Shown here: one piece after another, positions 17,166 to 35,050 of the stretch
How positions within the stretch are numbered: position 1 is the stretch's first letter
How the letters are laid out: every line of letters starts with the position of its first letter
DNA from: Eubacterium sp. MSJ-33
Lineage (GTDB): Bacteria; Bacillota; Clostridia; Lachnospirales; Lachnospiraceae
DNA: 64,000 nucleotides
Direction: 5' to 3'
Assembly (NCBI RefSeq): GCF_022174665.1
Contig: NZ_CP076562.1
Coordinates: 1-64,000, forward strand
The notes under the pieces: generated by a model
What the model was told of the DNA's origin: nothing
The model's database searches: none
The model's input: only the letters and a program-made list of their open reading frames with translations
Translations under genes and position numbers: made by a program

Positions 17166-17357
17166 ATGGCGGAAAAAGTTTTAAGAATCGAGGCGAAAAG
17201 ATATAGAGAGGACTCGGTCGTGATGTCTGCGCGCATACCAAAAGATATGTTACAGGATATTGATTTTGTAGCAAAGGAGTCCGGCAGAACACGGAACGAG
17301 ATTGTAACTATGTTTTTAGACTTCGCATTAAAAAATACAGAGATAATAGAAAAATAA
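17166..17357 (+). CDS. ribbon-helix-helix (CopG/Arc/MetJ-like) DNA-binding protein
   Basis: 63 aa; ...RIPKDMLQDIDFVAKESGRTRNEIV... RHH beta-strand + two helices pattern; start chosen at ATG 17166 for RBS spacing. Confidence 0.6.
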   Translation: MAEKVLRIEAKRYREDSVVMSARIPKDMLQDIDFVAKESGRTRNEIVTMFLDFALKNTEIIEK

Positions 17358-17377
17358 TAAAGGAGAGGTATTGGGGT

Positions 17378-19246: not shown

Positions 19247-19248
19247 GT

Positions 19249-19938
19249 ATGAACAAAAAAGATCAGAGAGGATACATCGTCCTTGGAATTATATTTGTAG
19301 TATTTACTGTAGTTGCATTTGCAGTACCTTTTTCTAAGAAGGCAGGATTCTGGCTTGGGTATGTATTTGGAATAATAGCGATTGCGTTCCAATTATATAT
19401 TTTCAAAATTTCTTTTGCGCAGGGAGAGGATGTAAAGAGTAAGTTTTACGGATTCCCAATCGCACGTATTGGCGTGATTTATCTGGGTGCACAAATGTTA
19501 TTCAGCATATTGGAGATGGCAACAGCAAAATTCCTTTTACCATGGGTGGCAGTCCTTGTGAATATAGTCATGTTAGCGTTTGCTCTCGTTGGATGCATCG
19601 CTGCAGATATCATGCGGGATGAAATCGTGCGACAGGATGTAAAGCTGGAAAAAGATGTAACCAATATGCGCAGACTCCAATCGTTGTCAGCGTCTCTGGT
19701 AGGACTCTGCCAGGATGAAAATGCAAAGAAAACACTGCAGGATATAGCGGATGAATTCAAGTACAGTGATCCGGTATCATCCGAACAGACAAAGGAAATG
19801 GAAGAGGATATGAAGATGCAGTTAGAGGAACTGCAAAATGCAGTATTGGAAGGGGATGTAAGCAATGTTCTAATGCTATGTGTAAACCTGAAAAATCGCC
19901 TGAATGAGAGAAATCAAATGTGTGCGATGAGTAAGTGA
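19249..19938 (+). CDS. membrane protein, 4 TM + cytoplasmic helical tail (unknown family)
   Basis: Four hydrophobic helices in first 120 aa; 2-bp gap from SPFH gene (translational coupling). Confidence 0.6.
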   Translation: MNKKDQRGYIVLGIIFVVFTVVAFAVPFSKKAGFWLGYVFGIIAIAFQLYIFKISFAQGEDVKSKFYGFPIARIGVIYLGAQMLFSILEMATAKFLLPWVAVLVNIVMLAFALVGCIAADIMRDEIVRQDVKLEKDVTNMRRLQSLSASLVGLCQDENAKKTLQDIADEFKYSDPVSSEQTKEMEEDMKMQLEELQNAVLEGDVSNVLMLCVNLKNRLNERNQMCAMSK

Positions 19939-19982
19939 TTGAAAAAAATGAGAAAAATTTAAGAATGGGAGAGCAATGAATT

Positions 19983-21527
19983 ATGGCACAGATGATAACA
20001 TTTAAATGCAAAATATGTGGAGGTAATCTTACTGTTTCACCGGGTGAGTATTTAGCTGAGTGCGAATATTGTGGAACAACAATGACTATTCCGAATATAG
20101 ACTCTGAAAGAAAAGCACGTATGTTTGATCGTGCAAATCAATATAGAATTAATTGTGAATTTGATAAGGCGTATGAGTCGTTTAAGGTTATTGCGGATGA
20201 GGATGAAACAGAGGCTGAAGCATATTGGGGAATGGTTCTATCAGAGTATGGAATTGAATATGTAGAAGACCCGGAAACACATAGGAGGAAACCGACATGT
20301 CATAGGGCACATTTAGAGTCCATAAAAAAATGCGTTAATTTTCAAATGGCCTGTAAATATGCGGAAAAAGAAAATGTAGTCTGGTATCAAGAAGAAGCGG
20401 AGATAATAGATAATATTTCTAAAAGAATAGCAGGTATCGGAGCAAAGGAAGAACCGTACGATATTTTTATATGTTACAAAGAGACAGATGATATTACAAA
20501 TGAACGAACAGAAGATAGCGTATTGGCTCAATCAATTTATGATGAATTGGTAAAAAGAAACTATCGAGTATTTTTTTCAAGGATATCGTTAGAAGAAAAG
20601 CTGGGTAAAGATTATGAGCCATATATTTATTCTGCATTGGTGAGCGCACCAGTTATGATAGTTGTGACTACTAGCAACGAACATTGTCAGGCTGTTTGGG
20701 TAAAAAATGAGTGGTCAAGATATATTGGATTTATGCATGAGGATGATTCAAAAACCATAATTCCGGTCTACAAGAAAATGTCGCCATATGATTTACCAGA
20801 AGAATTATCAAGATTTCAGGCTCAGGACATGGACAAAATTGGAGCCATCCAGGATTTGGTGCATGCAGTAGAGAAGCTGCTGGGAAATGCAAAAAATAAT
20901 GATTCAGAATCTGTAAAAAATCTTAGAAATGAAATAGAAACACGAAATAGGAAAACAAAGAAAATCATTGTAATTGGTACAATTGCAATCATGTTAGGTG
21001 CTCTTGCTATTGGTATAATTTGGAAAGTTAGAAATAAAAAAATAAACTCAACTACAGACAGCCAGTATGTCATGACTGAACAAGATGAAATAGAGCAGTA
21101 TTATTCAGTAATGCAGGAAGCTTATAAAAATGGAGATTATAACGATGCTGTTTCACAGTGGCTTGAAGCAACGGTTGTTTTGAATGAATATGGGGGAGTT
21201 CAGGGAAAGGAGTATAAGGAGACTAAAGAAATTAAGGAAACAGAAGTGAGATTGTTTGATGAATACATGAAGGAACAGAAAGAAGAATATATGAGTAGAA
21301 ATAGCGATGAGTATTATTACTCTAATTTATATGATGTTTTATATTGTCTATCATACCACAAGCATGTGTTAGACGAATCAGAAATTTTTAATGGTGATGA
21401 AAATGAGAAAAATTTCTATATTAAGATTTTGAAAAAAGCGGCTCAAGAGGAAATTGAAGGTTACAAATATGATTCGCAACAAAGGCAACCATACCAGGAT
21501 ATATATGACTATTTAGACAATATGTAA
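19983..21527 (+). CDS. Zn-ribbon + helical module + TIR domain + single TM + C-terminal extracytoplasmic domain protein
   Basis: N-term FKCKICGG...CEYCG Zn-ribbon. TIR signature at aa 157-285: YDIFICYKETDD..., ...SALVSAPVMIVVTT, ...AVWVKNEWSRY with conserved Glu. TM KIIVIGTIAIMLGALAIGIIWKV at aa 327-349. Confidence 0.7.
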   Translation: MAQMITFKCKICGGNLTVSPGEYLAECEYCGTTMTIPNIDSERKARMFDRANQYRINCEFDKAYESFKVIADEDETEAEAYWGMVLSEYGIEYVEDPETHRRKPTCHRAHLESIKKCVNFQMACKYAEKENVVWYQEEAEIIDNISKRIAGIGAKEEPYDIFICYKETDDITNERTEDSVLAQSIYDELVKRNYRVFFSRISLEEKLGKDYEPYIYSALVSAPVMIVVTTSNEHCQAVWVKNEWSRYIGFMHEDDSKTIIPVYKKMSPYDLPEELSRFQAQDMDKIGAIQDLVHAVEKLLGNAKNNDSESVKNLRNEIETRNRKTKKIIVIGTIAIMLGALAIGIIWKVRNKKINSTTDSQYVMTEQDEIEQYYSVMQEAYKNGDYNDAVSQWLEATVVLNEYGGVQGKEYKETKEIKETEVRLFDEYMKEQKEEYMSRNSDEYYYSNLYDVLYCLSYHKHVLDESEIFNGDENEKNFYIKILKKAAQEEIEGYKYDSQQRQPYQDIYDYLDNM

Positions 21528-21561
21528 TCGATAAAATCATTTCTTTGCGGAGGGGAAAAAC

Positions 21562-23994
21562 ATGGCAAATTATTGTATTTATGAAGTAAAAGTAATTGGA
21601 AGTGAAAAGGCATGTTTAATGGTGTTTGAATCAATGCCATATATGGATTATAACCAGATAGAGACTAAGAATCAGAAGAATGAATTAACAGAGCTTATGT
21701 TTGCAGGCAACTGTAAGTGGTCCGTTAATTTTAAAGTGAGAGATGTATTGTCAAAGGTGGATGTTGATTCTTTTGATGAAACATTAATTCAGGAAAAAGC
21801 TTCTGATTATTACCAATATTCATTAAGAGCAAAGTCTGAAGCATTTGAATGTGAAATATTGGTACATTATTGGTCTGAGGAATCTGGGTTTGATCAGTTT
21901 GACCATTATAAAAATGGAGAAATTATAAAAAAGAGAAAAATAAAATTCAACTCTAAGAAACAAAATCGATTTGACTGGAACAAGACAGAATTCGTCGGAC
22001 ACGAAGGAGAATATGATGAGTCTGTGGATGGTGAGGAACAAGATGAAAAATATGTAAAATTTATAACGGATACTATTAATAAATTGGCTGGAAAGACAGA
22101 TGTGTCAATTGATACAAAAAGAGATAAAAATATGAGTACAGACATGGAAAAAGTAGAAAATGCTATGTATCAATGGACGTTTACACAAGGAAATACAGTG
22201 AACTTGAATGAATGGACGATAGGAATTCCGGATGGATTTATGAAAATAAATTCAGAAGAGATGATACCTACAACACACAAAAAAAGACCATTTGAATTGG
22301 TACCTATCAAAGACAAAGAAAATCCTGAATGTGCGACGGTGCGTATTTTGCCAGGTCTTATGAAAAGCGTAGGAAATATAGGAGTTTCAGATATGTACCA
22401 TCCGCTTGCAAAATTGGGTATTGCAGCAATTGTAGCGTCTAATGGTGCTAAAGACTATTTGAAATCTATGGGTGTTGCTTCAAGAGTATTTTATACAGCT
22501 TGGGATAATTCTTATGCATATATACTTGTTCAAGATGCGTTATTTGATACAGTTGATTATCATTGCACGGTATTGGCAAATGGAAAGATCCAAATCTTGG
22601 GCGTGAGGACAGGCGTTAGCGATGTAGATGATTTTGATGAAGATAGAAAAAAACAGTTAGAGCAGTCAATTATTGAATGGTTACATACAATGCAATCTAA
22701 TAAATGTTCAGTGACTGTTCCAACAGTAAAATTTGAAGATGATGATTGTTTTGATGAGGTTATGAAAGGGAAAAGCCTGAAAAAATTTGAAACTGCTGTA
22801 CAACAAGCGCATGAGGAATATCGTGTAGCAATGTTAGGAAAAATGCATGTTGTAAAGTATGAGTTTGAAAGTGGGGTTGGAGTCGGAAAACAAAATGTAA
22901 AGGAAACGACAAAAGAAGTTCTATTGGAAGGAATGAAGGTACGGGAGTTTTATGCAGAAAAGGCAAATGATTTCGTGCAAAGAATACAGCAAGCGGAGAT
23001 AACGGGGGATACTTTTATAAAAATTCTAAAAAAATTGTTGGAATTAAAGAAGGATGATGAGCTAGCAAAAGTAACAATCGATAATCGTGTGGTTAAGGTG
23101 GATGTTCCAGACAGAGTAAAAGAAATAGAAAAAGAATGGGAGAAGATACTTCGTTCTGAGGAAGAGAAAAAGACAAGGGAACTTCAAAAAAAGAGAGAAA
23201 TAGAGGAAGCGAAAAGAAAAACTGCTTTGGAAAAAGAAGCTGCTGAAAAGAAAGCCAGAATGGAAAAAGAAGTAGCCGCGTGGACGGAAGAGGTTGAGAA
23301 AATAAAGAAAGATCGCGAAGCAAATCGTATAGAGAAAATAGCATCATATGAAGATGTGGCCAAAATTAGAAAGCAACATGCAGAGGAAGTTCGAACAACA
23401 CAACTGGATAGCACAAACGGCATGATTCAGGATTTGAAGAACCGTTTATCTTTGGATACTATAGAACTTGGACAATTGGGAGTGTTAAAGTTTCACAGAA
23501 GAAAAGAATTGCAAAATTCTATTGAACAATTGACAAGAGAATTGCAGGAAAAAGAACATGTCCTTATAACAATTGAAAAGGAATATGAAAAGGAAATAAA
23601 AAATGCTGATGAAGAATACACCCGGAAAGTAAATGGCCTTTCCGCGTATCTGGATGAAAAGTATCAAGTGCCAGAAAGTCCAATGGTGGTTGAAGAAAGA
23701 AAGCAAAGAGAAGAAGAAAAAGAAAAAAAAGAACGAAAAATAAAAGAGGATCCTAATTACGAAATAAAGTTAGAGATAATAGAACTTTTGGAGAGCGGTG
23801 AACCGATGATGTGTACTGAAGTGGCCAAAGAACTTGATATCTCTATAAATAAAGCAGTTGCTCTCATGTCGCAGCTTGCTGGTTCGGCGGATATGGAAAA
23901 ACGAGAACCGGGAAAGATATATCCGCTCATTCGTTTTGCAGATGGAAAGAGGATTAAATTTAAGATTAATCCGGAGTGGGATTCAGAGTTATAA
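21562..23994 (+). CDS. large coiled-coil protein (810 aa) with C-terminal winged-helix
   Basis: ~250-aa Glu/Lys-rich heptad region; C-terminal LEIIELLESGEPMMCTEVAKELDISINKAVALMSQL wHTH-like; unknown N-terminal globular domains. Confidence 0.6.
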   Translation: MANYCIYEVKVIGSEKACLMVFESMPYMDYNQIETKNQKNELTELMFAGNCKWSVNFKVRDVLSKVDVDSFDETLIQEKASDYYQYSLRAKSEAFECEILVHYWSEESGFDQFDHYKNGEIIKKRKIKFNSKKQNRFDWNKTEFVGHEGEYDESVDGEEQDEKYVKFITDTINKLAGKTDVSIDTKRDKNMSTDMEKVENAMYQWTFTQGNTVNLNEWTIGIPDGFMKINSEEMIPTTHKKRPFELVPIKDKENPECATVRILPGLMKSVGNIGVSDMYHPLAKLGIAAIVASNGAKDYLKSMGVASRVFYTAWDNSYAYILVQDALFDTVDYHCTVLANGKIQILGVRTGVSDVDDFDEDRKKQLEQSIIEWLHTMQSNKCSVTVPTVKFEDDDCFDEVMKGKSLKKFETAVQQAHEEYRVAMLGKMHVVKYEFESGVGVGKQNVKETTKEVLLEGMKVREFYAEKANDFVQRIQQAEITGDTFIKILKKLLELKKDDELAKVTIDNRVVKVDVPDRVKEIEKEWEKILRSEEEKKTRELQKKREIEEAKRKTALEKEAAEKKARMEKEVAAWTEEVEKIKKDREANRIEKIASYEDVAKIRKQHAEEVRTTQLDSTNGMIQDLKNRLSLDTIELGQLGVLKFHRRKELQNSIEQLTRELQEKEHVLITIEKEYEKEIKNADEEYTRKVNGLSAYLDEKYQVPESPMVVEERKQREEEKEKKERKIKEDPNYEIKLEIIELLESGEPMMCTEVAKELDISINKAVALMSQLAGSADMEKREPGKIYPLIRFADGKRIKFKINPEWDSEL

Positions 23995-24165: not shown

Positions 24166-27100
24166 ATGAAAATTAGAACGGATTTTGTGACAAATTCAAG
24201 TAGTAGTTCTTTTGTTGTTGAAATTTCTTTTACTTTGAAGGATGGCAGGGTGTTGAGGCGTTGTGAAGTAGGAGGGGAGGATGGAAGAGATTTATATGTG
24301 TGTGCGAGTCCAAGACAACTTGGTCTCTGTAAGAATGTTGAGGAAATGATTACGCTGTTAAATGATAGCGTAAAAGTCGAGGAGCGCTTTGATGACTGTA
24401 ATAGAAAGAAATTTGTTGATACAAATTTTATACAGCAACTTGAGTCAATAAAAGAAATGAGCGAAATTGAAAAAATTACAATTTCGGGAAATGAACTAAA
24501 TTATGAAGAGTATGAGAGAATTTATAGATATAATCTTGATACAGAAGAGTATACCTGCGAAATTTTTGGAGAGGAATTTGAAAGTGAAGGATCAGGAGGA
24601 AATCTGGAATTTTGTGACGGATTTTTGGCAACACGTCAGGATGGATATGATGATGGGGAGTTTTTGCGTGTTGAAGATTTACCAATAATTGTTCCGTTGG
24701 AAGAAAGTAGTGATAAAGAACAGGTAAGTTTATTGGAAAATGTCAGAGAAGGTGAAAAACTTATTCTGAAAAATGAATTTACGGATGATTTATTTGACCC
24801 TGTAAAAATAGGCGTTTTTAATAAAAAAAATCAGCTGCTAGGGTATCTTTGCGAATTGGACTATTCGTTAATAGCAATAGCAAGAGCATTAGAAGATGTT
24901 GATGCTTGTGTCGATTCTGTCGCACCATTATCTGGTAGAAAGAAAAATGAAGAATATTCTTTAATGGATGTGAGAATTACATCAAAGGAAGGAAATAACC
25001 CATTTGCAGAAGGTTATAAAATAAAATTTGATGTAAGTGAATTATCTGAAGATGAGAAAAAGTTATTTAATGAAATGATAGAGCACTGGAGAAATCAGTA
25101 TGACAAAGAAGAAGTAACTATGAGCTGGATTTTTAAAATAAATCCACCAGAGTATTTTGTGACTTGTGATGAATTTGATGAAAAAACAGCAGAAGAAACA
25201 AAAAGATTTTTACAAGAAGCAGGTAGCAGAAGTAGCTTAAAAAAGTTACATGCAACATTTTGGGGAAATCTGAATTTTGAAAAAAGAAAATTTCGGCAGT
25301 ATAACTATCTGCTGGATAGAGGATTCTTAGATTGTGAAAAAACAATAGAAGAAAAGAAAGATGAATGCATTACTAATCAGTCATCTTCGTTGGAAGAAAA
25401 AATAGAAAAAGCAGTCGAGAAAGTGAGCAACTTGAAAAAAATGTCTAATACCATGTTTTATGATAGTAGGCATAGTGTGAATATGGATTTTCAAAAAGGA
25501 AAGATTGTTGAATTTGGTAATTATAGACAAGGAAAAAATGGAGTAGTTAAACCTTTACAATGGGTTGTTTTGGAGCGAAAGGGGAATGGTGCAAAACTTC
25601 TTTCATTAAAAGGAATTGAAACCTTGCCATACAATGTCAAAGATGGAAAAACAAGCTGGGAGAAATGCTTTCTTCGTTCGTGGTTGAACACAGAATTTTA
25701 TAATGCTGCATTTTCTTCTGAAGAGGCAGAAAGCATTATTTTATCGGATGTGGTTGCGGTTAGGCACCCCCAATATTTAACTTCACCAGGAAATGATACG
25801 AAAGATAAAATTTTTCTTTTAAATTATCAGGAGGCTGAGAACGTTGGGAAAAGGTGGAAAAAAACATATTTAACGGAATGGGCAGTTCAAAATGATGACT
25901 TGTTTAAAAAAAATTATGGCATAAATAATTATGCACTGTGGTGGTTGAGAACTCCGGCTAGTGCAACGAAAAGAAGTTGTGTGATGGGAAAATATATTTC
26001 TGGGATAGATGTTCGAGATGTTGATGGTATAGCGGTTAGACCTGCGATTTGGATAAATCTTAATTCAGAATATTTTGGTGGATCATTTGAAGTAATGGTA
26101 AAGGATGCTGAGAAAGAATTGTCTGTTGATGAGGTAATTGAAAAAATAAAAGAAAAATACAATACGAAAACAAAACCGACATCTACAATAGAATTTGATA
26201 TTCAAAATGTAGAATACACTAAGCAATTAAATGAATTAAAAAAGAAATGTGAAAATGAATTAGAAATTACATACAGAAATTATTTAATTCAAATGGGAGT
26301 TTTAGGAGACAAGGTAAAATTAATTGATACATACGATCCGTCAGAAATGATCAAGACCTTAAAAGAAAAATATAACAACAGTGAATTAAAACCGAAAACA
26401 TTTGTTGAGTTGATGGATAAAAATCCGGAATTCCGCGAAGAATTAAATACTTTACGTTCTGTATCTCAAAAAAAGTATGGAGATACAGCTGTTGACTATT
26501 TGAAAAAACAGGGGATAATTGCAACTTCGGAGGAAATAGCAGCTATCAGACAAGAAAAAATTAAAAAAATAGTGGTGGAAACAGCAGAACGGAAAGCAGA
26601 AATAAGAAGAAAGGAACGATTAAGGAAAGTTGATAGGATACAAATACAAGATGCAAAATTGCAAAATAAAGTAGATAAATTAATTTATGGCCTGAATGAA
26701 TTATATCCTGAGCATAAAGTATTTTCTTTGGATAGTTTGGATGGCACTCTGCGGGAAAATTTATCAAAGTATGCAAAACAAATAGGATATTTATCTGCTG
26801 ACGATATGCTTTTGGCATATGATTTTGTGAAGATTGATGCTGATGAGGTTAAAGAAATCCGCCCTAATGTATTACATAAACCGGGAAATGAACCAGAAAT
26901 AATCAAGGGTAAGGTGCAAAGTATATTAAGACGATTAGAAGAATATTATCCGGATAAAAAAATAGAGAGGAGTATTCAGTTGGATCATAAAAAACTAAGC
27001 CAAAGTATTACTGGGGCATATCTTTGGCTTGGATATAACAATCAAGGGGAATTCCTGAAGGCTTACGGATATGAAAATAATATAAAATATAATGAAAATG

Positions 27101-27318
27101 GGCGTGGTGGAGGAAGACCATCTTCGACAAATGTAGAAGAGCTTATTATGGAATTAAAGAAAAGAAGTGGAGGAAATCCATATTCTGGATTTAAGGAATT
27201 AAAAGAGAAGAATCCGGATCTGGCAGGAAAGTTAAAAACTATATCTAACAAAGCAAATAGTTTGTTAGGAATGCCGTTCGTAAAGTATTTAAAGCAAGAG
27301 GGAATCGTGCGTGATTAA
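24166..27318 (+). CDS. 1050-aa protein: Ser-run N-terminal module (MKIRTDFVTNSSSSSF), HIRAN-like segment, DUF6273-like domain, long helical C-terminus
   Basis: DUF6273-like block GKIVEFGNYRQ...PLQWVVLE...LLSLKGIETLPYN...SWEKCFLRSWLNTEFYNAAFSSEE...YALWWLRTPAS...VRPAIWINL; HIRAN-like GEKLILKNEFTDDLFDPVKIGVFNKKNQLLGYL. Confidence 0.65.
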   Translation: MKIRTDFVTNSSSSSFVVEISFTLKDGRVLRRCEVGGEDGRDLYVCASPRQLGLCKNVEEMITLLNDSVKVEERFDDCNRKKFVDTNFIQQLESIKEMSEIEKITISGNELNYEEYERIYRYNLDTEEYTCEIFGEEFESEGSGGNLEFCDGFLATRQDGYDDGEFLRVEDLPIIVPLEESSDKEQVSLLENVREGEKLILKNEFTDDLFDPVKIGVFNKKNQLLGYLCELDYSLIAIARALEDVDACVDSVAPLSGRKKNEEYSLMDVRITSKEGNNPFAEGYKIKFDVSELSEDEKKLFNEMIEHWRNQYDKEEVTMSWIFKINPPEYFVTCDEFDEKTAEETKRFLQEAGSRSSLKKLHATFWGNLNFEKRKFRQYNYLLDRGFLDCEKTIEEKKDECITNQSSSLEEKIEKAVEKVSNLKKMSNTMFYDSRHSVNMDFQKGKIVEFGNYRQGKNGVVKPLQWVVLERKGNGAKLLSLKGIETLPYNVKDGKTSWEKCFLRSWLNTEFYNAAFSSEEAESIILSDVVAVRHPQYLTSPGNDTKDKIFLLNYQEAENVGKRWKKTYLTEWAVQNDDLFKKNYGINNYALWWLRTPASATKRSCVMGKYISGIDVRDVDGIAVRPAIWINLNSEYFGGSFEVMVKDAEKELSVDEVIEKIKEKYNTKTKPTSTIEFDIQNVEYTKQLNELKKKCENELEITYRNYLIQMGVLGDKVKLIDTYDPSEMIKTLKEKYNNSELKPKTFVELMDKNPEFREELNTLRSVSQKKYGDTAVDYLKKQGIIATSEEIAAIRQEKIKKIVVETAERKAEIRRKERLRKVDRIQIQDAKLQNKVDKLIYGLNELYPEHKVFSLDSLDGTLRENLSKYAKQIGYLSADDMLLAYDFVKIDADEVKEIRPNVLHKPGNEPEIIKGKVQSILRRLEEYYPDKKIERSIQLDHKKLSQSITGAYLWLGYNNQGEFLKAYGYENNIKYNENGRGGGRPSSTNVEELIMELKKRSGGNPYSGFKELKEKNPDLAGKLKTISNKANSLLGMPFVKYLKQEGIVRD

Positions 27319-27353
27319 TCGTCTGGAGTTTTGGCAAAGAGAGAGGTAAATGT

Positions 27354-28451
27354 GTGAAATATATAATCAGGGATAAAAAATATCGTTTTAAATCAGCGTT
27401 TGATATGGAAACAGGTGCATATGTAAGAACCGGTATTTTAGATGAAAATGGGGAGGATACAGGGGTAGATCCTTTTATGGCGTCTTTTCCGCATCTTATT
27501 GATGTGGGTGTAATGGGACATTGCACTCATGGAAAAACAGGTTTGTGTGCAAGAGCAGGTATAGGCTGTTATCAGAATGGTTTGTATATCAATCAACCCA
27601 ATATGAGTGTAGAAGATTTCCGATGGATTGCGGAACAGTGTAAGGGTAGATGTAATCAATTAGCGCTTGGGGGACGTGGGGATCCAGACCAACATGAACA
27701 ATTTGAAGAACTACTAATGATTAGTAGAGAAAATATGTTAGTTCCTAATTTTACAACTTCTGGTTATGGAATGACAACACAGATTGCGTCCTTGTGTAAA
27801 AAGTATTGTGGCGCGGTTGCTGTTAGTTGGTATAGGAATGAGTATACAATAGAGGCAATAAATATGTTGTTGGAAGCGGGTGTTAAAACAAATATACATT
27901 ATGTGTTGGGAAATAATAGTATTAACGAGGCAATTGAGAGGTTATCAACTGATGATTTCCCGAAAGGTATTAATGCAGTTATTTTTCTTTTACATAAGCC
28001 CGCAGGGCAGGGAACGAAAGATAACATGTTGGCTGTTGGGGATCCGCGAGTAAAGCGTTTTTTTGAGCAGATTGAAAAAAAACATCCGTTTAAGGTAGGA
28101 ATGGATAGCTGCAATGTGCCGGGAGCAATTAATTTTTGTAATAAAATCATTCCGGAATCGTTAGACACATGCGAGGGAGGCCGATATAGCTGCTATATTG
28201 GTGCAGATATGATTATGGTTCCGTGTAGCTTTGATCAACAGAAAATATATGGGGTGTCTCTAAGAAAAATGGATATAACAGATGCTTGGAATAGCATACA
28301 ATTCAAAAACTTTAGAGACAAAATGAAAAATGTCTGTCCGGACTGCAATAAAAAAGCGTTGTGCATGGGAGGATGTCCCCTTATGCCGGAAATTGTATTT
28401 TGCAACAGAAAGGAAAGAAAATTGTATAAAGGAGAAGACAATGAAAATTAG
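27354..28451 (+). CDS. radical SAM/SPASM-like Fe-S protein with non-canonical N-terminal Cys motif (CX7CX6C)
   Basis: GTG start with RBS agagagg. GHCTHGKTGLCARAGIGC where CX3CX2C is expected. GGRGDP at GGE-motif position. NFTTSGYG at ribose-motif position. C-terminal Cys clusters CNVPG..FCNK..C.GG..C and CPDCNKKALCMGGCP typical of SPASM/twitch. Confidence 0.45.
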   Translation: MKYIIRDKKYRFKSAFDMETGAYVRTGILDENGEDTGVDPFMASFPHLIDVGVMGHCTHGKTGLCARAGIGCYQNGLYINQPNMSVEDFRWIAEQCKGRCNQLALGGRGDPDQHEQFEELLMISRENMLVPNFTTSGYGMTTQIASLCKKYCGAVAVSWYRNEYTIEAINMLLEAGVKTNIHYVLGNNSINEAIERLSTDDFPKGINAVIFLLHKPAGQGTKDNMLAVGDPRVKRFFEQIEKKHPFKVGMDSCNVPGAINFCNKIIPESLDTCEGGRYSCYIGADMIMVPCSFDQQKIYGVSLRKMDITDAWNSIQFKNFRDKMKNVCPDCNKKALCMGGCPLMPEIVFCNRKERKLYKGEDNEN

Positions 28452-28515
28452 AACAGAGTTTGTAACTAATTCAAGTAGTAGCAGTTTTAGTGTTATGCAG
28501 ATGTTGAGGAAGTAG
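28441..28515 (+). CDS. orphan 24-codon ORF duplicating the N-terminal module of the 24166 gene (MKIRTEFVTNSSSSSFSVMQMLRK)
   Basis: Strong RBS aaggagaag; first ~50 nt near-identical to 24166-24215; overlaps the 3' end of the rSAM-like gene by 11 nt; may be a precursor-like peptide or a gene-start remnant. Confidence 0.35.
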   Translation: MKIRTEFVTNSSSSSFSVMQMLRK

Positions 28516-28647: not shown

Positions 28648-30378
28648 ATGCAGGAAAATTATGAGTTAGTACAACGAGGTTTTCGAAAACTGGTAGTTAC
28701 GTTTTCTGGTTATATTGGAAGGGAATTCAGTAAAAAATATAAAAATGCATGGTGGGACGAAGTGTTAGAGGCATTATCAGACCAGCATGATTTGCCAAGT
28801 GATGGTGAATATGGATATCTGATAGATTCATTAGATATTTTAAATTGTATTCGCTTATTAGAACGCAGGTGGAAAGAAGTTTTTCAAGATGAGTTACCTT
28901 TGAACTGTCGTACATGGGCAAAAGAACTTAAGGGGATTAGGAATAAAGTCGCTCATATTGGTCAGCAGGATTTGGATCAGCCCATAGCAGAACGTGCACT
29001 TGACACGATGCGTTTGCTATGTAAAGAATTGGATTCGGATGATGCGGCAGAAATTGAAAAAATATATGAAGAGGTTAGAAAAAGAGCAAATGATTATCGA
29101 CCGGTGACGCGTATTTTTGAGGGAGTAGAGCAACCGGCTTCAGAATCTAATCGCGGTGAATTGATGAAAGATAGTCTTCTTCAGCTTGTCGGAACGGATG
29201 TGGTTCAGAAAACAACGTTGACAAGGAAGGTAACATATGGAGGGAAAACAGTTATTTACCCGGTGTATCGGATTCGCTTAGACTATCTTTTTTATAATGA
29301 TCAGAATGATCGAATAGCAACCTGGATTACCCGATATCAGGCTGAAAATGGCGAAGATTCTTTGCTTGAGCTAGGGAGAGAAGAATACAATAATGTTATT
29401 GAAACATTTATATATGAAAGCAATCCGGATGCAATATCAAAAACACAAAAAAATATTTTGTTGGTCGGACAACGTGAGCCGGGAGTTACTTTATCAGATG
29501 GGCGTATTGTGGATGGAAACCGAAGATACACTTGTTTGCGAAGAATTCAACGTGAGAAAATAGGACCTGTTTATTTTGAAACAGTAATTATGGATATGGA
29601 TATCCGGGAAGACAAGAAACAGATAAAATTATTGGAACTTGCAATACAGCACGGAGAAGAAAAAAAGGTAGACTATGATTTGATTGATTATGCGATTGGT
29701 ACATATAGGGATATTGTGCAGACAAAGCTGCTTACATTGGACGAATACGCAACAGGGACAAATGAAAAACCGGCAGATGTAAAAAATCGAATTGAAATTG
29801 CAGAAATTATTAGTGAGTTCCTAAAGTATATAAAGCTTCCGGAGCAATATCACATTGCGAGGGAATATCAGGTTTATAGTTTGTTTCAGGAGATGATGGC
29901 TCCGCTTAAAAAGTTGAATGAATCAGAAAAGGCGCAACTAAAGAAAATAACATTTAATAATGCTATGATGAAAGTTATACCTGACCAGAGAAAATTTATA
30001 CGAGATATTAAAGGACTGGTTAAAAATGGCACCTATGAATCATATTTTGAAGAACAAATGAATTGGATTAATGTGATTCGGGACAAGTTTGATATGTGCG
30101 AAGTTCATTCTAAAAGTGATATAGACAAGTTTGCAGAAGAAAATGCGAAGATTGCAGAGGAATTGCAAATATCGATGGAAAGAGCTCTGCAAAAATCCCG
30201 GTCAATAATATTAAAAAATAAACCGGTAGAAAATGTGTCAAAAAGTATTACTCTTTTAACAGAGGTGGATTCCAGACTGTTTGGAAGGTTGGAAGAGGAA
30301 GAGAAAAAGCAATTAAAAGACGAATTGGATGAACTTGCAAGAATTGTAGATGTGTTTCGGGAAAAACTTGTGAGGTAG
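28648..30378 (+). CDS. HEPN (Swt1-like, Rx4H) N-terminal domain fused to ParB/Srx-like (DUF262/DGQHR-type) domain
   Basis: GIRNKVAH at 28939-28956 at the end of a ~110-aa helical domain with conserved W/R pattern; downstream IVDGNRRYTCLRRI matches the ParB/DUF262 DG(Q/N)(Q/H)R motif. Confidence 0.5.
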   Translation: MQENYELVQRGFRKLVVTFSGYIGREFSKKYKNAWWDEVLEALSDQHDLPSDGEYGYLIDSLDILNCIRLLERRWKEVFQDELPLNCRTWAKELKGIRNKVAHIGQQDLDQPIAERALDTMRLLCKELDSDDAAEIEKIYEEVRKRANDYRPVTRIFEGVEQPASESNRGELMKDSLLQLVGTDVVQKTTLTRKVTYGGKTVIYPVYRIRLDYLFYNDQNDRIATWITRYQAENGEDSLLELGREEYNNVIETFIYESNPDAISKTQKNILLVGQREPGVTLSDGRIVDGNRRYTCLRRIQREKIGPVYFETVIMDMDIREDKKQIKLLELAIQHGEEKKVDYDLIDYAIGTYRDIVQTKLLTLDEYATGTNEKPADVKNRIEIAEIISEFLKYIKLPEQYHIAREYQVYSLFQEMMAPLKKLNESEKAQLKKITFNNAMMKVIPDQRKFIRDIKGLVKNGTYESYFEEQMNWINVIRDKFDMCEVHSKSDIDKFAEENAKIAEELQISMERALQKSRSIILKNKPVENVSKSITLLTEVDSRLFGRLEEEEKKQLKDELDELARIVDVFREKLVR

Positions 30379-30383: not shown

Positions 30384-33302
30384 ATGAATATAAAAATATT
30401 ATCAATTGATGAAATAGGTTTGTCAAATCGTTCTGTGAATGCACTACATAGGGTGGAAATATATACAGTTGGGGAGATGATAGAATTAAACGAAGAATTT
30501 TTGCATAAGATTAGAAATATTGGAGAAAAATCAATTGAAGAAATTTGTAAGAAAATACAGGAATATAAAATATTGGAAACAAATTCGAATATTGAAGTTC
30601 CGGAAGATTTTGATGAATGGATTTTGGTTGAATCCAACCAGCAATTTGTAATAACGTGGTTAAGAGATAATAAGATAAAAATCGACGAATTAGAATTATT
30701 ATCGGTACGGGCATATAATTTGCTGATATTTTCAGGGTATGAGTATTTGTATCAGGTGGCTTTTCTTACAGAAAAAGATTTGATGCAGATTCCCAGAATG
30801 GACAGCTCATCTGCATTAGAAATTGTTCGGTATGTATCAAGATATATTGCGGAACAACAAGAACAAATTATTGCGTCAATTGTTCAGATGCAGTCTAAGG
30901 AGACACCATTAAATCAGGTGTCAGTTTTTGATATACTTGATAAAATTGAATATCATGATGTGATATTGGACTTTGTGAAATTGCATGATATTTTGCTTGA
31001 TGGAATGAATATTTCCAATCGGGCAAAAAATAGCTTGAGTATAAGCGGGTATTATTATCTTAGTGATATAGTATTTATGACATATACGCAGCTGAAAAAT
31101 ATACCATCTATGGGAGCTGGAACGGCAAAAGAAGTTATAGATAAAATAAATGAATATCTAAGTAAATATGAAGCGAGAATTTTGGCATTCGTTAGTGGTG
31201 ATGTGTCTGGGTTATGGGATGACACAGAAATACAACAGAGGATTTGGAATCAGTTTCGTGATATTGGATTTCAAGGACTTAGTCTGAATGAAATAGTAGA
31301 ACGGATGAAGCTTCCGGAACAAGTGACGATAGAGCGAATAAAGAAAAATATAGGTCAGCTGATTGTTGATAAAAAATTAGAATATGTAGATTATCGATGT
31401 TACCGTGTGTATGCGCGGTTTGCGGATTATTTGGAGCAATGTGATGTTATTGATGAAAGATCAAAAAATATTTTAAGAAAACGATTGCAATCTATGACAT
31501 TAGAAGAGATTGGACAAGAAGAAGGGATAACCAGAGAACGGGTACGTCAAATCCTGAAGAAAGGGATTGTCCAAATTAAAAAAATATATAAGTCAAGGGA
31601 AGGTACCAATTTATTTGATGAGGATTATTATCGATATTTGTATGAAAATTATGATTTTGATAAAAAGGATGGAACGGAATGGCTTGGAATTCCCGTATAC
31701 GTATGGAAATATCTTGAGTTAAATGATGTAAAACAGGGAAAGAAAGAGTTGCAGTCGGCGAGGGAAGATCAACAGGGACTTGATCTTGGAATGCGTTTGA
31801 AAATAAAAAACTATCTTAATAGAAATAAACTTTTTGTGGATGGTAGATGGATTGAAAAGGAGCGTGCGGAATTAGAAAAGGTTGTTATTAGAAAATTTTG
31901 TCAGGAAGATGTATCGTTTGGGAAGTTTTGCCAGATATATAATCAGTTTTTGTTACAGGAAGAAATACCATATGATGAAGATATCTATTATACAGAGACA
32001 GTGTATCGGACAAGAAAAAATCGTATTCGTGATTTAAGATACTTGCTTTGGAAACAGCACGAACAAATAAGATATTATGATATTGATGGACGTGATTATG
32101 ATGAACTTTTGGATACATTAAATCTGGATGCTTATGAGAATATTGAATTGTCGACAGAAAAATTCATGAGAGATTATCCGGAAATTATGAAGAAATATGA
32201 TATCCGGGATAAGTATGAATTACATAATTTATTAAGGAAAATCATACCGGAAGGAAGTTATCATGAGTTTTTCTGTGAACGTACGCCAAATATCAGATTT
32301 GGACACTTTGATCGTGATGCTGCAGTATTGGACATTTTGATTGATAATGCGCCAATAGCTCAGGATGATTTAGCGGATCTAATAAGTGAGGAATATGGAT
32401 TTGATGCGGATGGAATAAAATCTAATTATTTGAAGCCGGTTTCAGAGTATTTACATCAACGTACATATTCGATTGATCAGAAATCCATGTCTGTTGAAAA
32501 TCGAGAATTATTACATGAAGCACTTACAGATGATTTCTATTTTATGGATGAGATTCGACAGATTTATGATAGGTTAATTCCAGGGGCAGATAGAGAAGAG
32601 ATTAATCCGTATAATTTGAAGGTGATGGGATTCCATGTTTATTCAAGATATGCAATTCAAAACCATTCGTCTGTTGATGCGTATTTTGATGACTTATTAA
32701 CGCGGGAAGATATTATAGATATTACAGCGTATAAAAAAAGATATGCATATGTGCAGATGTTTTCGCAGAAGTTGATGGAATTAAAACGAGATTTAACAGT
32801 AATTGAATTTGAAAAAAATCAGATTATTAATTTTAGAAAATTGGAGCAATCAGGTGTTACGAAAAATATGATTCAGGAATTTTGTGATAATGTTTATAAC
32901 TTTATTACAGATGGAACATATTTTAGTATTCAATCCTTGATACAGGATGGCTTTCAGTCTGACTTGCATGAGCTGGGATTTTCTGATTGGTTTTATGCGA
33001 ATTTGTTAATATCTGATGAACGTTTTTCAGCTGCTATGATGTTTGGAAATTTGATTTTTTATAAGGGAAAAGCGTCAATAACGATTAAGATGTTTGAAAA
33101 AGATATTATTTGTAAGTATCAAAGTATGGATACATATGATCTTGTGGATGAACTTACCGATCGGTATGGATGTAAGGTTCCGGATAAATATGATGTTATC
33201 TATAAAGTTCAGGATACAGAGGTGTATTATGATAAAATCTTAGATCGTCTGTATGCCAACATGAATGTATATGATGAAGAATGCGCGAGAGGAGGGTTTT
33301 AA
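30384..33302 (+). CDS. 972-aa protein: 3x RNA-polymerase alpha-CTD-like HhH repeats + sigma-70 region-4-like HTH + ~600-aa unknown C-terminal region
   Basis: LSIDEIGLSNRSVNALHRVEIYTVGEMIELNEEFLHKIRNIGEKSIEEI (alpha-CTD pattern) repeated at aa ~100 and ~200; MTLEEIGQEEGITRERVRQILKKG (sigma r4.2 pattern). Confidence 0.55.
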   Translation: MNIKILSIDEIGLSNRSVNALHRVEIYTVGEMIELNEEFLHKIRNIGEKSIEEICKKIQEYKILETNSNIEVPEDFDEWILVESNQQFVITWLRDNKIKIDELELLSVRAYNLLIFSGYEYLYQVAFLTEKDLMQIPRMDSSSALEIVRYVSRYIAEQQEQIIASIVQMQSKETPLNQVSVFDILDKIEYHDVILDFVKLHDILLDGMNISNRAKNSLSISGYYYLSDIVFMTYTQLKNIPSMGAGTAKEVIDKINEYLSKYEARILAFVSGDVSGLWDDTEIQQRIWNQFRDIGFQGLSLNEIVERMKLPEQVTIERIKKNIGQLIVDKKLEYVDYRCYRVYARFADYLEQCDVIDERSKNILRKRLQSMTLEEIGQEEGITRERVRQILKKGIVQIKKIYKSREGTNLFDEDYYRYLYENYDFDKKDGTEWLGIPVYVWKYLELNDVKQGKKELQSAREDQQGLDLGMRLKIKNYLNRNKLFVDGRWIEKERAELEKVVIRKFCQEDVSFGKFCQIYNQFLLQEEIPYDEDIYYTETVYRTRKNRIRDLRYLLWKQHEQIRYYDIDGRDYDELLDTLNLDAYENIELSTEKFMRDYPEIMKKYDIRDKYELHNLLRKIIPEGSYHEFFCERTPNIRFGHFDRDAAVLDILIDNAPIAQDDLADLISEEYGFDADGIKSNYLKPVSEYLHQRTYSIDQKSMSVENRELLHEALTDDFYFMDEIRQIYDRLIPGADREEINPYNLKVMGFHVYSRYAIQNHSSVDAYFDDLLTREDIIDITAYKKRYAYVQMFSQKLMELKRDLTVIEFEKNQIINFRKLEQSGVTKNMIQEFCDNVYNFITDGTYFSIQSLIQDGFQSDLHELGFSDWFYANLLISDERFSAAMMFGNLIFYKGKASITIKMFEKDIICKYQSMDTYDLVDELTDRYGCKVPDKYDVIYKVQDTEVYYDKILDRLYANMNVYDEECARGGF

Positions 33303-33307
33303 TTATA

Positions 33308-33808
33308 ATGGTTCAGGCAAAAAAACAGTTTCTTGATGAAGTAGAAAAACTTCATGAAAGAAATGAACTATCCAAGAAAGTAGAAGCAACATATTTTGAA
33401 CCGGGAATGATGGAGTATCTGGAACAATCAGAAGGTATATATGAAGAGGGTACAGGGAATGTTATTCTTCGTTTTGAAGTTATGGGAACACGTTATGATG
33501 GTCGGACAGAGCAGATTGAAAAGTTAAAACCGGGGGACTTGATACAAATAGTCAGAGAAAAAGAAAATCCTTACAACTCTAATAATTTTACTTTGCTGAC
33601 AAAACGAGGACAAAATGTGGGGAATATGCCGGCTAATTTATGTAACGCGATTGCACCATTGTATGATGAAGGAAATTTAAAAATCATGGATGCCTCTGTT
33701 AGCTATGTGGAACCTATTTCCAAGAGAAATCGTCATGCCAAGCAAGCTATCTTATTTGTGGAATTAAAGGCAAAACTGAATTCCGCCCTGAATTCCGCCC
33801 CATGCTAG
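33308..33808 (+). CDS. HIRAN domain protein
   Basis: FEVMGTRYDGRTEQIEKLKPGDLIQIVREKENPYNSNNFTLLTKRGQNVGNMPANLCNAIAPLYDEG matches HIRAN (3'-DNA-end binding) pattern; C-terminal 12-bp tandem duplication ctgaattccgcc x2 (LNSALNSA). Confidence 0.55.
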   Translation: MVQAKKQFLDEVEKLHERNELSKKVEATYFEPGMMEYLEQSEGIYEEGTGNVILRFEVMGTRYDGRTEQIEKLKPGDLIQIVREKENPYNSNNFTLLTKRGQNVGNMPANLCNAIAPLYDEGNLKIMDASVSYVEPISKRNRHAKQAILFVELKAKLNSALNSAPC

Positions 33809-33865: not shown

Positions 33866-35002
33866 GTGGGATATATCTTAAAATTATTCGATACAGATCT
33901 TTTGAAGTTTGATGTGATTGAGAACTTGGCAGATCCTGTACTTAAGATAACATGGATGGATGAATCGCGGAAGGCACTGTTTCCACTTGGAATGGAAGTG
34001 TCAGACGACGGAATTGCAAGTTTTATTCGGCATCGTTGTATACCGAAGAACCGGGCATATGTGAATGCGTTTCTGGCAAAAAATGGACTTAGTGCAAATC
34101 GCCCTATGGATGTGATTACGGTATGTAAAGGCCTTTCTCTGAATGATTCGTATTGGATTACAGAAGAGGATTCGGTGCAGAGTTTTGCATCCAGCAACCT
34201 GTACGAGAATCGTTTCAGTCGTTTGCTTGCGTGGACGGCATTTACCGGATATGGCAGTAGTGTGCGGGCAACGTTTTTATCTTCACCGGAATTTACGACG
34301 AATGGTATGCTGCCGAAATGCTGGCGCAGAATGGAGAATAAAATATATCTCTATAAAGGAGCGACTTCCGGTGCAGCCAATACTGGAATGGAACCGTATT
34401 CCGAATTGTATGCGTATGAGATTGGTGCGCATGCCGGATTTTCGGTAATCCCTTATAAAATAAGCGTATGGAAGGGAAATGTATGCTCTGTATGTGAGCT
34501 TTTTACAAGCAAAGATCTGGCATATGTTCCGGCTGGGTATATTATAAAAAAAGGTGGCATGGACGCTGTCCGTAAGTTTTATGGAACATTAGGTGCAGAA
34601 TTTGTGGATGCGTTGGATGAGATGTTGGTATTTGATGCGATTGTCTGCAATACAGATCGCCATTTCGGAAACTTTGGCGTGCTTGTGGACAGTCACACAA
34701 ATCAGATTGCAGCACCGGCGCCATTGTTTGATCATGGCAATGCACTTTTTAATTTGGCGGGTGAAGAAAACTGGGAGAATGAGAACATATTGCAGGCGTA
34801 TATAGACACGTTATTTCCTTGTGTCTATGATGATTTTATGGAGGAAGCGAAGCGTGTGTTGAAACCATCAATTCGGGAAAAGGTAAAAAAGCTTTTAACA
34901 TTCGAAGTGAAAAAGATGGGAAGAACGAATTATGACAGTAAAAAATTGAAGCTTATGACAAAGATTATTCAGAAGCGCGCAAGAGCACTTTTGGAATCAT
35001 AA
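33866..35002 (+). CDS. HipA-like Ser/Thr kinase domain protein (no adjacent HipB-type HTH gene)
   Basis: HipA_C motifs VFDAIVCNTDRHFGNFGVL and APLFDHGNAL; GTG start. Confidence 0.6.
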   Translation: MGYILKLFDTDLLKFDVIENLADPVLKITWMDESRKALFPLGMEVSDDGIASFIRHRCIPKNRAYVNAFLAKNGLSANRPMDVITVCKGLSLNDSYWITEEDSVQSFASSNLYENRFSRLLAWTAFTGYGSSVRATFLSSPEFTTNGMLPKCWRRMENKIYLYKGATSGAANTGMEPYSELYAYEIGAHAGFSVIPYKISVWKGNVCSVCELFTSKDLAYVPAGYIIKKGGMDAVRKFYGTLGAEFVDALDEMLVFDAIVCNTDRHFGNFGVLVDSHTNQIAAPAPLFDHGNALFNLAGEENWENENILQAYIDTLFPCVYDDFMEEAKRVLKPSIREKVKKLLTFEVKKMGRTNYDSKKLKLMTKIIQKRARALLES

Positions 35003-35010: not shown

Positions 35011-35050
35011 GACTCTCTGGAATCATAAATGATTTCAGAGAGTTTTTTAT
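35011..35050 (+). terminator. rho-independent terminator, right edge of island
   Basis: gactctctggaatcat / atgatttcagagagtt stem + ttttttat. Confidence 0.5.

What the first reader, a model, noticed from the sequence alone, without database searches (positions are those of the whole stretch)
28648..30378. HEPN (Rx4H) - ParB/DUF262-like fusion protein
The N-terminal ~110 aa ends in GIRNKVAH, the Rx4-6H catalytic signature of HEPN RNases (Swt1-like flavour). The C-terminal half contains IVDGNRRYTCLRRI, matching the DG(Q/N)(Q/H)R motif of the ParB/Srx-like NTPase/nuclease domains found in GmrSD (DUF262) and DndB. Both domains are hallmark effectors of abortive-infection and restriction systems. 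Their fusion suggests a stand-alone nucleic-acid-targeting toxin or defence effector.
Basis: inference. Interest (0 to 1): 0.6.

Follow-up and report, generated by a model that had tools for sequence, protein, structure and literature searches.

The report
HEPN–ParB subunit of AbiR-like defence
This gene encodes a predicted RNA-cutting domain (HEPN) fused to a ParB-like DNA/nucleotide switch protein, and it always sits next to a large RNA-polymerase-like DNA-binding protein and a small HIRAN protein, so the three genes look like an uncatalogued variant of the little-studied AbiR anti-phage system that is common in gut and rumen Clostridia.

Summary

The protein is not a stand-alone toxin. In 34 of 34 informative species-level loci it is followed directly by a ~970-aa non-enzymatic protein (three RNAP alpha-CTD copies, sigma region 4 and about eight winged helices). 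In 27 of 27 loci a small HIRAN protein comes next. The same ParB-like module and partner occur without HEPN beside an SNF2 or PLD-SNF2 helicase. That architecture matches the published description of lactococcal AbiR (AbiRa sigma-like, AbiRb ParB-like, AbiRc nuclease-SNF2). One relative carries TIR in place of HEPN.

Best reading: this is the effector-bearing AbiRb-like subunit of a HEPN/HIRAN variant of AbiR, which PADLOC does not recognise. It is a new variant of a known kind, of moderate interest. The mechanism is inferred, and identity to the original AbiR sequences could not be tested.

The parts
28648..30378 (+). ORF of 576 aa: the HEPN(Swt1)-ParB-like fusion protein, here interpreted as an AbiRb-like subunit carrying its own effector
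28675..29031 (+). Swt1-type HEPN domain (aa 10-128)
   Evidence: Pfam PF18731, E=6.2e-24
28939..28956 (+). HEPN catalytic motif R98-N99-K-V-A-H103
   Evidence: It is the only Rx4-6H match in the protein. It is conserved in 15 of 15 HEPN-bearing homologues down to 39% identity, and the RNx3-4H form is present in 166 of 167 type-A proteins.
29272..29664 (+). ParB/sulfiredoxin-fold N-domain (about aa 209-339). Invariant residues are N217, N220, R222 (NDQNDR, box-I-like), G285, D289-G-N-R-R293 (box-II-like) and E330, Q334 (box-III-like).
29512..29526 (+). DGNRR motif (aa 289-293)
   Evidence: Invariant in 167 of 167 type-A proteins. DG[NQ]RR is present in 226 of 234 other relatives.
29680..30375 (+). 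HTH-like region followed by a long helical C-terminal region (about aa 345-576)
30384..33302 (+). Conserved partner of 972 aa (AbiRa-like): three RNAP alpha-CTD copies, sigma-70 region 4 and about eight winged-helix domains, with no enzymatic fold. Its start codon lies 5 nt after the stop of the HEPN-ParB gene.
33281..33808 (+). Small HIRAN-domain protein of 175 aa, the third conserved gene. It overlaps the end of the partner gene by 22 nt.
   Evidence: Pfam HIRAN E=1e-12. It follows the partner directly in 27 of 27 loci with room.
35011..35044 (+). First strong intrinsic-terminator-like hairpin downstream of the operon, located after the window-specific HipA-like gene
   Evidence: 15-bp stem followed by a T-run. 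No terminator-like site lies between 28648 and 34552.

Best explanation
The ORF encodes the effector-carrying, ParB-like (AbiRb-like) subunit of a three-gene anti-phage module. Gene 1 is the HEPN-ParB-like protein (this ORF). Gene 2 is a large non-catalytic alpha-CTD x3 / sigma-region-4 / winged-helix-array protein (AbiRa-like). Gene 3 is a small HIRAN protein.

Shown by tool results: the domain identities, the strict gene linkage, the conservation of the HEPN catalytic residues and the ParB-box residues, the exchange of HEPN for TIR, SNF2 or PLD-SNF2 in relatives, and the location in a low-GC island with other defence genes.

Inferred mechanism: the partner and the HIRAN protein act as sensor and scaffold on nucleic acid. 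They would detect phage DNA ends, replication intermediates, or interference with transcription. The ParB-like module acts as a nucleotide-gated DNA-associated switch, as in ParB, KorB and Noc, where NTP binding closes the N-domains into a dimer. That closure would bring together the two HEPN domains fused directly to the N-domains. HEPN RNases need such a dimer to form their composite Rx4H active site. The active RNase would then cut RNA and arrest or kill the infected cell (abortive infection). The HEPN fusion together with the HIRAN protein occupies the position that the AbiRc nuclease-SNF2 helicase holds in classical AbiR.
For: 1. HEPN_Swt1 scores E=6e-24. RNx3-4H is present in 166 of 167 homologues.
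2. The ParB fold is supported by two methods on a pLDDT-90 model. Seven of 94 relatives give weak ddrB-ParB Pfam hits over the DGNRR region. UniRef and PGAP label some relatives 'ParB/Sulfiredoxin' or 'ParB N-terminal domain'.
3. N217, N220, R222, G285, N291, R292, R293, E330, Q334 and Y343 are invariant across 94 relatives of all architectures.
4. Linkage: the partner is directly downstream in 34 of 34 loci and HIRAN follows in 27 of 27. For the bare module, the partner is directly upstream in 29 of 29 loci and an SNF2 or PLD-SNF2 helicase is downstream in 24 of 26.
5. Effector swapping: P0123 carries TIR (E=4e-19) on the same module. L018 has a HIRAN+TIR protein. The PLD-SNF2 protein hits PbeA at E=5e-67.
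7. Context: the system lies in a low-GC island with a resolvase, a TIR protein and a HipA-like/PDC-M03 gene. Relatives sit among accessory genes on Enterococcus plasmids and at the end of a prophage.
8. The partner's alpha-CTD/sigma4 part is the fastest-evolving piece of the system: mean identity to the window's copy is 40%, against 64% for the ParB module.
Against: 1. No experiment exists for this variant.
2. No sequence profile places the C-terminal module in ParBc or DUF262 at a significant level, so NTP binding is only inferred from motif resemblance.
3. Homology to the original pKR223 AbiR proteins could not be tested because their sequences were not obtainable. The AbiR link therefore rests on matching architecture and a matching best structural hit.
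4. AbiR is reported to need a methylase, but no methyltransferase gene is present in the window's island. C5-methyltransferases are rare next to type-A and type-B loci.
5. PADLOC has no model that matches the ParB-like or partner proteins.
6. Activation of HEPN by dimerisation is pure inference.
Confidence: 0.6

Rival explanations
1. The protein is a stand-alone nucleic-acid-targeting toxin, or a GmrSD-like type IV restriction enzyme: a DUF262-type NTPase that regulates a nuclease within a single polypeptide.
For: HEPN-ParB/DUF262 fusions are a known theme (PMC3710099 Table 1; PMC3632139). One of 94 relatives weakly hits GmrSD_N at E=0.003.
Against: PF03235 does not hit this protein. There is no HNH/DUF1524 domain. 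The fold and domain order match ParB, KorB and pNOB8 ParB with an HTH. The gene is linked to the partner in 34 of 34 loci and to HIRAN in 27 of 27, with overlapping or abutting reading frames.
Confidence: 0.05
2. The ParB-like module is itself the main catalytic effector, acting as a DNA nickase or as an NTPase that depletes nucleotides, as reported for some ParB/Srx proteins. HEPN would then be only an added back-up suicide RNase.
For: Many bare-module systems pair it with a 620-aa SNF2 helicase in which no nuclease domain was detected (Pfam labels list only helicase families), so another catalytic activity may be needed there. ParB/Srx proteins with nuclease and NTPase activity are cited in PMC12839542 and PMC10853773. 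The box residues are invariant in all architectures.
Against: Strict conservation of HEPN Rx4H and the swap to TIR indicate that the N-terminal domain is a real effector. The closest structural neighbours include the clamps KorB and Spo0J as well as proteins labelled as nucleases, so the fold does not decide between the two roles.
Confidence: 0.15
3. This is a mobile-element maintenance or gene-control module, not immunity. A KorB/ParB-like DNA clamp plus a sigma/alpha-CTD-like transcription factor would regulate island genes, and HEPN would act as an addiction toxin.
Against: No ParA or centromere-like partner was seen. The swapping among HEPN, TIR, PLD-SNF2 and HIRAN is typical of immune effectors. 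The architecturally identical AbiR confers phage resistance. The system is embedded among other defence genes.
Confidence: 0.1

Closest known systems
AbiR abortive-infection system of Lactococcus lactis plasmid pKR223 (AbiRa/AbiRb/AbiRc; listed in DefenseFinder)
   Same: Both pair a sigma-70-like large protein (AbiRa, here the partner) with a ParB-like protein whose best PDB match is 5K5D (AbiRb, here the C-terminal 410 aa). Relatives of the window's module sit in exactly the AbiR gene order, followed by a PLD/endonuclease-SNF2 helicase.
   Different: In the window there is no AbiRc helicase-nuclease. Instead a Swt1-type HEPN domain is fused to the N-terminus of the ParB-like protein, the gene order is inverted (ParB-like first, partner second), and a HIRAN protein is the third gene. 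No methyltransferase is nearby. Sequence homology to the pKR223 proteins was not tested.
Canonical ParB-family CTP-dependent DNA clamps (ParB/Spo0J, Noc, KorB, PadC, pNOB8 ParB)
   Same: They share the Srx-like N-domain followed by an HTH and a helical C-terminal region. They also share an arginine-rich GxxRR-type motif and an acidic/Gln motif at equivalent positions (the motif equivalence is inferred).
   Different: There is no significant sequence-profile match. There is no ParA partner or parS context. Here the module is fused to an RNase domain and lies in a defence island.
GmrSD / BrxU / SspE (DUF262 ParB-like NTPase + DUF1524 HNH) and DndB (ParB-like + HEPN)
   Same: These are ParB-superfamily domains with a DGQQR/DGQHR-like motif, combined with a nuclease domain in defence systems. 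ParB-HEPN fusions were noted in PMC3632139 and PMC3710099.
   Different: PF03235 is not matched. There is no HNH domain. HEPN is N-terminal and of the Swt1 family. The motif is DGNRR. The protein needs two partner genes.
Swt1-family HEPN fused to DUF499 ATPase (Hma / type-1 BREX-related systems)
   Same: [quoted passage not shown]
   Different: The core there is a STAND/AAA+ ATPase accompanied by a methyltransferase and a helicase-nuclease. Here the core is a ParB-fold protein with an alpha-CTD/sigma4/winged-helix partner and a HIRAN protein.
PbeA (HKD nuclease-SF2 helicase of PbeABCD / CxC-ABC systems)
   Same: The PLD-SNF2 protein of the bare-module relatives hits PbeA models at E=5e-67, so the effector module is shared.
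   Different: PbeB, PbeC and PbeD (a small protein, a CxC ABC ATPase and DndE) have no counterpart here. The window has no PbeA-like gene.

Membership tests
HEPN superfamily, Swt1-like family (PF18731) | Profile match above the curated threshold over the whole domain | tested here: met
   E=6.2e-24, 84.9 bits against a 27.5-bit cut-off, profile positions 1-114 of 115
HEPN superfamily, Swt1-like family (PF18731) | Conserved Rx4-6H catalytic motif | tested here: met
   R98-x4-H103 is present. RNx3-4H is present in 166 of 167 homologues.
HEPN superfamily, Swt1-like family (PF18731) | RNase activity | not testable with these tools
   Needs biochemistry
ParB/sulfiredoxin superfamily | Srx-like N-domain fold | tested here: met
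ParB/sulfiredoxin superfamily | Significant sequence-profile match to ParBc or a related Pfam model | tested here: not met
   The window protein gives no hit. Relatives give only sub-threshold ddrB-ParB hits, with best E=0.0015 against a 27.6-bit cut-off. A profile search against PDB sequences finds no ParB.
ParB/sulfiredoxin superfamily | Arginine-rich nucleotide-binding motif (GxxRxxA / DGQQR type) | tested here: met
   DGNRR is invariant. Its equivalence to ParB box II is judged by position in the fold and is an inference.
ParB/sulfiredoxin superfamily | NTP binding or hydrolysis, or DNA clamping | not testable with these tools
   Needs biochemistry
DUF262 / GmrSD N-terminal domain (PF03235) | Profile match to PF03235 | tested here: not met
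   The window protein gives no hit. One of 94 relatives hits at E=0.0028.
DUF262 / GmrSD N-terminal domain (PF03235) | C-terminal DUF1524/HNH nuclease partner domain | tested here: not met
   The C-terminal part is an HTH followed by helices. There is no HNH hit.
AbiR system | Sigma-70-like large protein (AbiRa) encoded adjacent | tested here: met
   The partner has Sigma70_r4 (E=1.4e-9) plus alpha-CTD copies. It is adjacent in 34 of 34 type-A loci and 29 of 29 type-B loci.
AbiR system | ParB-like protein (AbiRb) whose best structural match is PDB 5K5D | tested here: met
AbiR system | Endonuclease + SNF2 helicase protein (AbiRc) | tested here: not met
   It is absent from the window. It is present next to bare-module relatives in 24 of 26 loci. 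In the window a HIRAN protein and the HEPN fusion take its place.
AbiR system | Sequence homology to the pKR223 AbiRa/b/c proteins | not testable with these tools
   The primary papers and the sequences are not held. The cluster look-up gave no link.
AbiR system | Dependence on a cognate DNA methylase | tested here: inconclusive
   No methyltransferase was found among the ORFs at 12.8-37.9 kb. A C5-methyltransferase is present in only 3 of 29 type-A loci and 1 of 28 type-B loci. Other methyltransferase families and functional dependence were not tested.
PADLOC candidate system PDC-M03 (HipA-like + HIRAN) | HIRAN protein (M03B) paired with a HipA-like kinase (M03A) | tested here: inconclusive
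   Both models hit in the window: M03B at 2e-11 on 33281-33808 and M03A at 2e-17 on 33866-35002. However, the kinase is absent from all other type-A loci, whereas HIRAN is always present. So the HIRAN gene belongs primarily to the HEPN-ParB trio.

The most novel reading that the evidence does not exclude
The partner protein is an integrated decoy of the host transcription machinery. Its three RNAP alpha-CTD copies and its sigma region 4 mimic the surfaces that phage takeover factors bind or modify, such as ADP-ribosyltransferases acting on alpha R265 and anti-sigma-4 proteins. Engagement of the decoy would license the ParB-like nucleotide switch to close, and that closure would assemble the HEPN (or TIR) effector. 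The system would then be a guard of RNA polymerase hijacking, built on a repurposed chromosome-segregation clamp. This is compatible with three observations. The alpha-CTD/sigma4 part is the fastest-evolving region. The alpha-CTD fold is retained almost perfectly (rmsd 1.5 A). The first alpha-CTD appears to retain the residues of the '265 determinant' (R16, N19, G47, K49, S50, equivalence judged by eye).
Probability: 0.15. Interest if true: 0.85.

Novelty: new variant of a known kind. Interest (0 to 1): 0.55.

Why it matters
[quoted passage not shown] This analysis shows that the AbiRa-like/AbiRb-like pair is the conserved core of a broad family. The ParB-like module has 859 clusters at 50% identity and more than 2,000 HEPN-bearing clusters at 90% identity. 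The family is found mainly in gut and rumen Clostridia, and also on Enterococcus plasmids. The core carries exchangeable effectors: PLD-SNF2, SNF2, HEPN with HIRAN, and TIR. That pattern points to the ParB-fold protein as a nucleotide-gated switch used in immunity, and to an RNA-polymerase-like protein as the sensor. The HEPN variant offers an easy read-out (RNA cleavage, R98/H103 mutants) for working out how the whole family is triggered. PADLOC's 2023 models do not detect this variant (DefenseFinder could not be run here), so defence censuses of gut microbiomes that rely on such model sets probably miss it.

Tried and rejected
1. Direct profile assignment of the C-terminal half failed. Pfam, NCBIfam, PADLOC and PHROGs give nothing on the protein.
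2. phmmer and profile searches against PDB sequences failed to find ParB, both with the whole module and with its N-terminal 240 aa alone. They returned only coiled-coil or chance hits.
3. The transitive route through PGAP-annotated 'ParB' relatives also failed. Pfam gives only sub-threshold ddrB-ParB hits for them.
4. I looked for a canonical ParB in the fetched loci, to use in a motif alignment. None was present.
5. I tested whether the system is PbeABCD. Only the PLD-SNF2 effector of relatives matches PbeA, and the other Pbe components are unrelated.
6. I tested a BREX/PglW or MzaA relationship for the partner. Only the generic alpha-CTD or sigma4 segments match, far below the family thresholds.
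7. I tested whether a C5-methyltransferase is a regular neighbour. It is not.
8. I tried to obtain AbiR sequences or accessions from the primary papers, the review's tables and supplements, and a cluster look-up. All attempts failed.
9. Literature searches for this gene trio under several term combinations found no description other than AbiR.
10. Model coordinates are not exposed to the sandbox, so I could not test whether the invariant residues cluster in space.

Full report
**Observation.** Window 28648..30378 (+) is a clean 576-aa ORF with a Shine-Dalgarno-like GAGGAA upstream. GIRNKVAH lies at aa 96-103 and is the only Rx4-6H match in the protein. DGNRR lies at aa 289-293. The identical protein is in NCBI as 'Swt1 family HEPN domain-containing protein [Eubacterium sp. 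MSJ-33]'. More than 2,000 clusters at 90% identity match the query, and all of the best 120 listed are full-length relatives of about 575 aa at 67-73% identity. The gene lies in a low-GC island. GC falls from about 0.45 to 0.31-0.37 between roughly 16 and 35 kb.

**N-terminal domain.** Pfam HEPN_Swt1 matches aa 10-128 end to end, with E=6.2e-24. R98, N99 and H103 are conserved in all 15 HEPN-bearing homologues aligned, down to 39% identity. The RNx3-4H form is present in 166 of 167 type-A proteins collected.

**C-terminal module: sequence evidence.** No library assigns it a family. An exhaustive phmmer search with aa 165-576 found 859 clusters at 50% identity. Most of the 150 best listed are stand-alone proteins of about 400 aa, so the region is an independent module. 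Across 94 diverse relatives the invariant residues are N217, N220, R222, G285, N291, R292, R293, E330, Q334 and Y343 in protein numbering. Seven of the 94 give sub-threshold hits to PF18763 (ddrB-like ParB) over the DGNRR region, and one hits GmrSD_N. Some relatives are labelled 'ParB/Sulfiredoxin' or 'ParB N-terminal domain' by UniRef or PGAP. Profile searches against PDB sequences find no ParB.

**Gene neighbourhood.** The next gene (30384..33302) starts 5 nt after the stop codon. The gene after that (33281..33808) overlaps it by 22 nt. No terminator-like site occurs until 35011, apart from two weak 6-bp stems at 34553-34573 inside the HipA-like gene. I surveyed 80 species-level loci with HMMs built from my own alignments.
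- HEPN-ParB of about 575 aa (38 loci): the partner is directly downstream in 34 of 34 loci with sequence available, and a small HIRAN protein follows in 27 of 27.
- Bare ~402-aa module (29 loci): the partner is directly upstream in 29 of 29, and an SNF2 (~620 aa) or PLD-SNF2 (~860 aa) helicase is directly downstream in 24 of 26.
- Module with a C-terminal beta-rich extension (9 loci): the partner is upstream in 8 of 8, and HIRAN is downstream in 4.
- One representative (P0123) carries a TIR domain (E=4e-19) where HEPN would be.
- One locus (L018) has a HIRAN+TIR protein.

Exchange among HEPN, TIR and PLD-SNF2 on a constant core is the signature of immune effectors.

**Relation to known systems.** PADLOC has no model for the ParB-like protein or the partner. 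The PLD-SNF2 neighbour of bare-module relatives matches PbeA at E=5e-67, but the other Pbe components are unrelated.

The decisive lead is the 2026 review of lactococcal Abi systems (PMC13064643). It describes AbiR as three genes:
- AbiRi/a, which resembles a sigma-70 factor.
- AbiRii/b, which resembles ParB, with best PDB match 5K5D and 196 residues aligned.
- AbiRiii/c, which has an N-terminal ATP-dependent endonuclease-like domain and a C-terminal SNF2 helicase.

The review also reports a confidently predicted ternary complex. According to the same review, AbiR reduces phage DNA replication, needs the LlaKR2I methylase, and is toxic without it. This matches the 'bare-module' architecture found here, including the same best PDB hit. 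AbiR is listed in DefenseFinder.

I could not obtain the pKR223 sequences. The AbiR relationship is therefore established at the level of architecture and fold, not by direct alignment. ParB-HEPN fusions as a general theme were already noted in 2013 (PMC3710099; PMC3632139).

**Distribution.** The family occurs mostly in Lachnospiraceae, Oscillospiraceae and Ruminococcus from gut and rumen. It also occurs in Erysipelotrichaceae, Paenibacillus, Vagococcus, Treponema and a few other bins. The bare version is on 82 plasmids, mainly Enterococcus, and at the end of Streptococcus prophage Javan191. Only 8 of 2.9 million viral contigs carry a relative, and one of these has the full HEPN trio. A simpler ParB-like + SNF2 pair without the sigma-like partner also exists, next to C5 methyltransferases or a type III R-M system. 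For the types with the partner, a C5-methyltransferase is rarely adjacent: 3 of 29 type-A loci and 1 of 28 type-B loci.

**Interpretation.** The following points are shown by tool results:
- The protein is an active-looking Swt1-type HEPN domain fused to a ParB-fold module.
- It is one gene of a strictly conserved trio.
- The trio is a variant of a family whose helicase-bearing form has the architecture of AbiR.

The following steps are inferred:
- The partner and the HIRAN protein sense phage nucleic-acid structures or interference with transcription.
- The ParB-like module is a nucleotide-gated dimerisation switch.
- Closure of its N-domains pairs the HEPN domains fused to them into an active RNase.
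- RNA cleavage aborts the infection.

The rival readings are a stand-alone toxin or GmrSD-like enzyme, the ParB module as the true catalytic effector, and a mobile-element regulator. They are weighed in the rival-explanations section. The first is contradicted by the gene linkage and by the fold. The other two are not excluded.

**Verdict.** I rate this a new variant of a known kind (an AbiR-like system with a HEPN-fused AbiRb and a HIRAN protein in place of AbiRc). Interest is moderate: there is no surprise at the level of domains, but the system-level picture is useful and apparently undescribed, and it yields a testable mechanism.

Noticed in passing
window 28441-28515 (+), compared with 24166-24220: A 24-codon ORF (MKIRTEFVTNSSSSSFSVMQMLRK) overlaps the 3' end of the radical-SAM/SPASM gene (27354-28451). 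It nearly repeats the N-terminus of the 1050-aa DUF6273 protein (MKIRTDFVTNSSSSSFVV). It could be a radical-SAM substrate or leader motif, or a gene fragment.
   Followed up: no
window 24166-28451; loci L020, L042, L043, L049, L064, L074, L076: A DUF6273 protein and/or a radical-SAM/SPASM protein (PHROG 7293, E=4e-20) recur beside AbiR-like loci in several unrelated genomes. The two genes are adjacent to each other in the window and in L042 and L043. They may form a separate island-borne module or an accessory to the system.
   Followed up: partly
window 33866-35002 (+): A HipA-like kinase (PADLOC PDC-M03A, E=2e-17) lies directly after the HIRAN gene, which itself hits PDC-M03B at 2e-11. It ends at a strong terminator at 35011-35044. 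The kinase is absent from all other type-A loci. So here a PDC-M03-like kinase appears to share or borrow the HIRAN gene of the HEPN-ParB trio.
   Followed up: partly
window 16318-23994: The rest of the low-GC island encodes a serine resolvase (16318-16980), an SPFH/Band-7 protein with a Cys-rich N-terminus (17378-19246), an unannotated 229-aa protein, a zinc-ribbon/TIR protein (19983-21527) and an 810-aa protein with only a weak HTH hit. This is probably further defence cargo.
   Followed up: partly
L046 7455-9569, L052 7455-9572, L047 7698-9569, L031 7476-9638: A longer HEPN-ParB form (623 aa as called in L047, 704-720 aa in the other three; a recognisable C-terminal extension only in L031) lacks the adjacent full alpha-CTD partner. 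In L046, L052 and L031 it is preceded by one or two C5 DNA methyltransferase genes. This looks like a methylase-linked subtype.
   Followed up: partly
L093 (Streptococcus phage Javan191, 1-6607), L094 (L. lactis plasmid), L095 (L. plantarum plasmid), L098-L102: A simpler ParB-like + SNF2 pair occurs without the sigma-like partner. It sits next to a REase-like gene with a C5 methyltransferase, a type III R-M system, or dcm/vsr/MutH-like genes. These may be R-M-coupled relatives of AbiRb/AbiRc.
   Followed up: partly
P0125, P0128, P0162, P0127 (C-terminal ~140 aa); L051-L063: Many relatives of the ParB-like module carry a C-terminal beta-rich domain of about 140 aa. It ends in a conserved F(A/S)xDF(D/A)F motif in three of the four sequences examined (P0127 ends differently) and has no Pfam match. 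Its function is unknown.
   Followed up: no
L073, L077, L079 (about 6019-8013): In Flavonifractor, Pseudoflavonifractor and Faecalibacterium loci, a second, shorter paralogue of the partner (~660 aa, matching only the C-terminal winged-helix part) lies between the full partner and the ParB-like gene.
   Followed up: no
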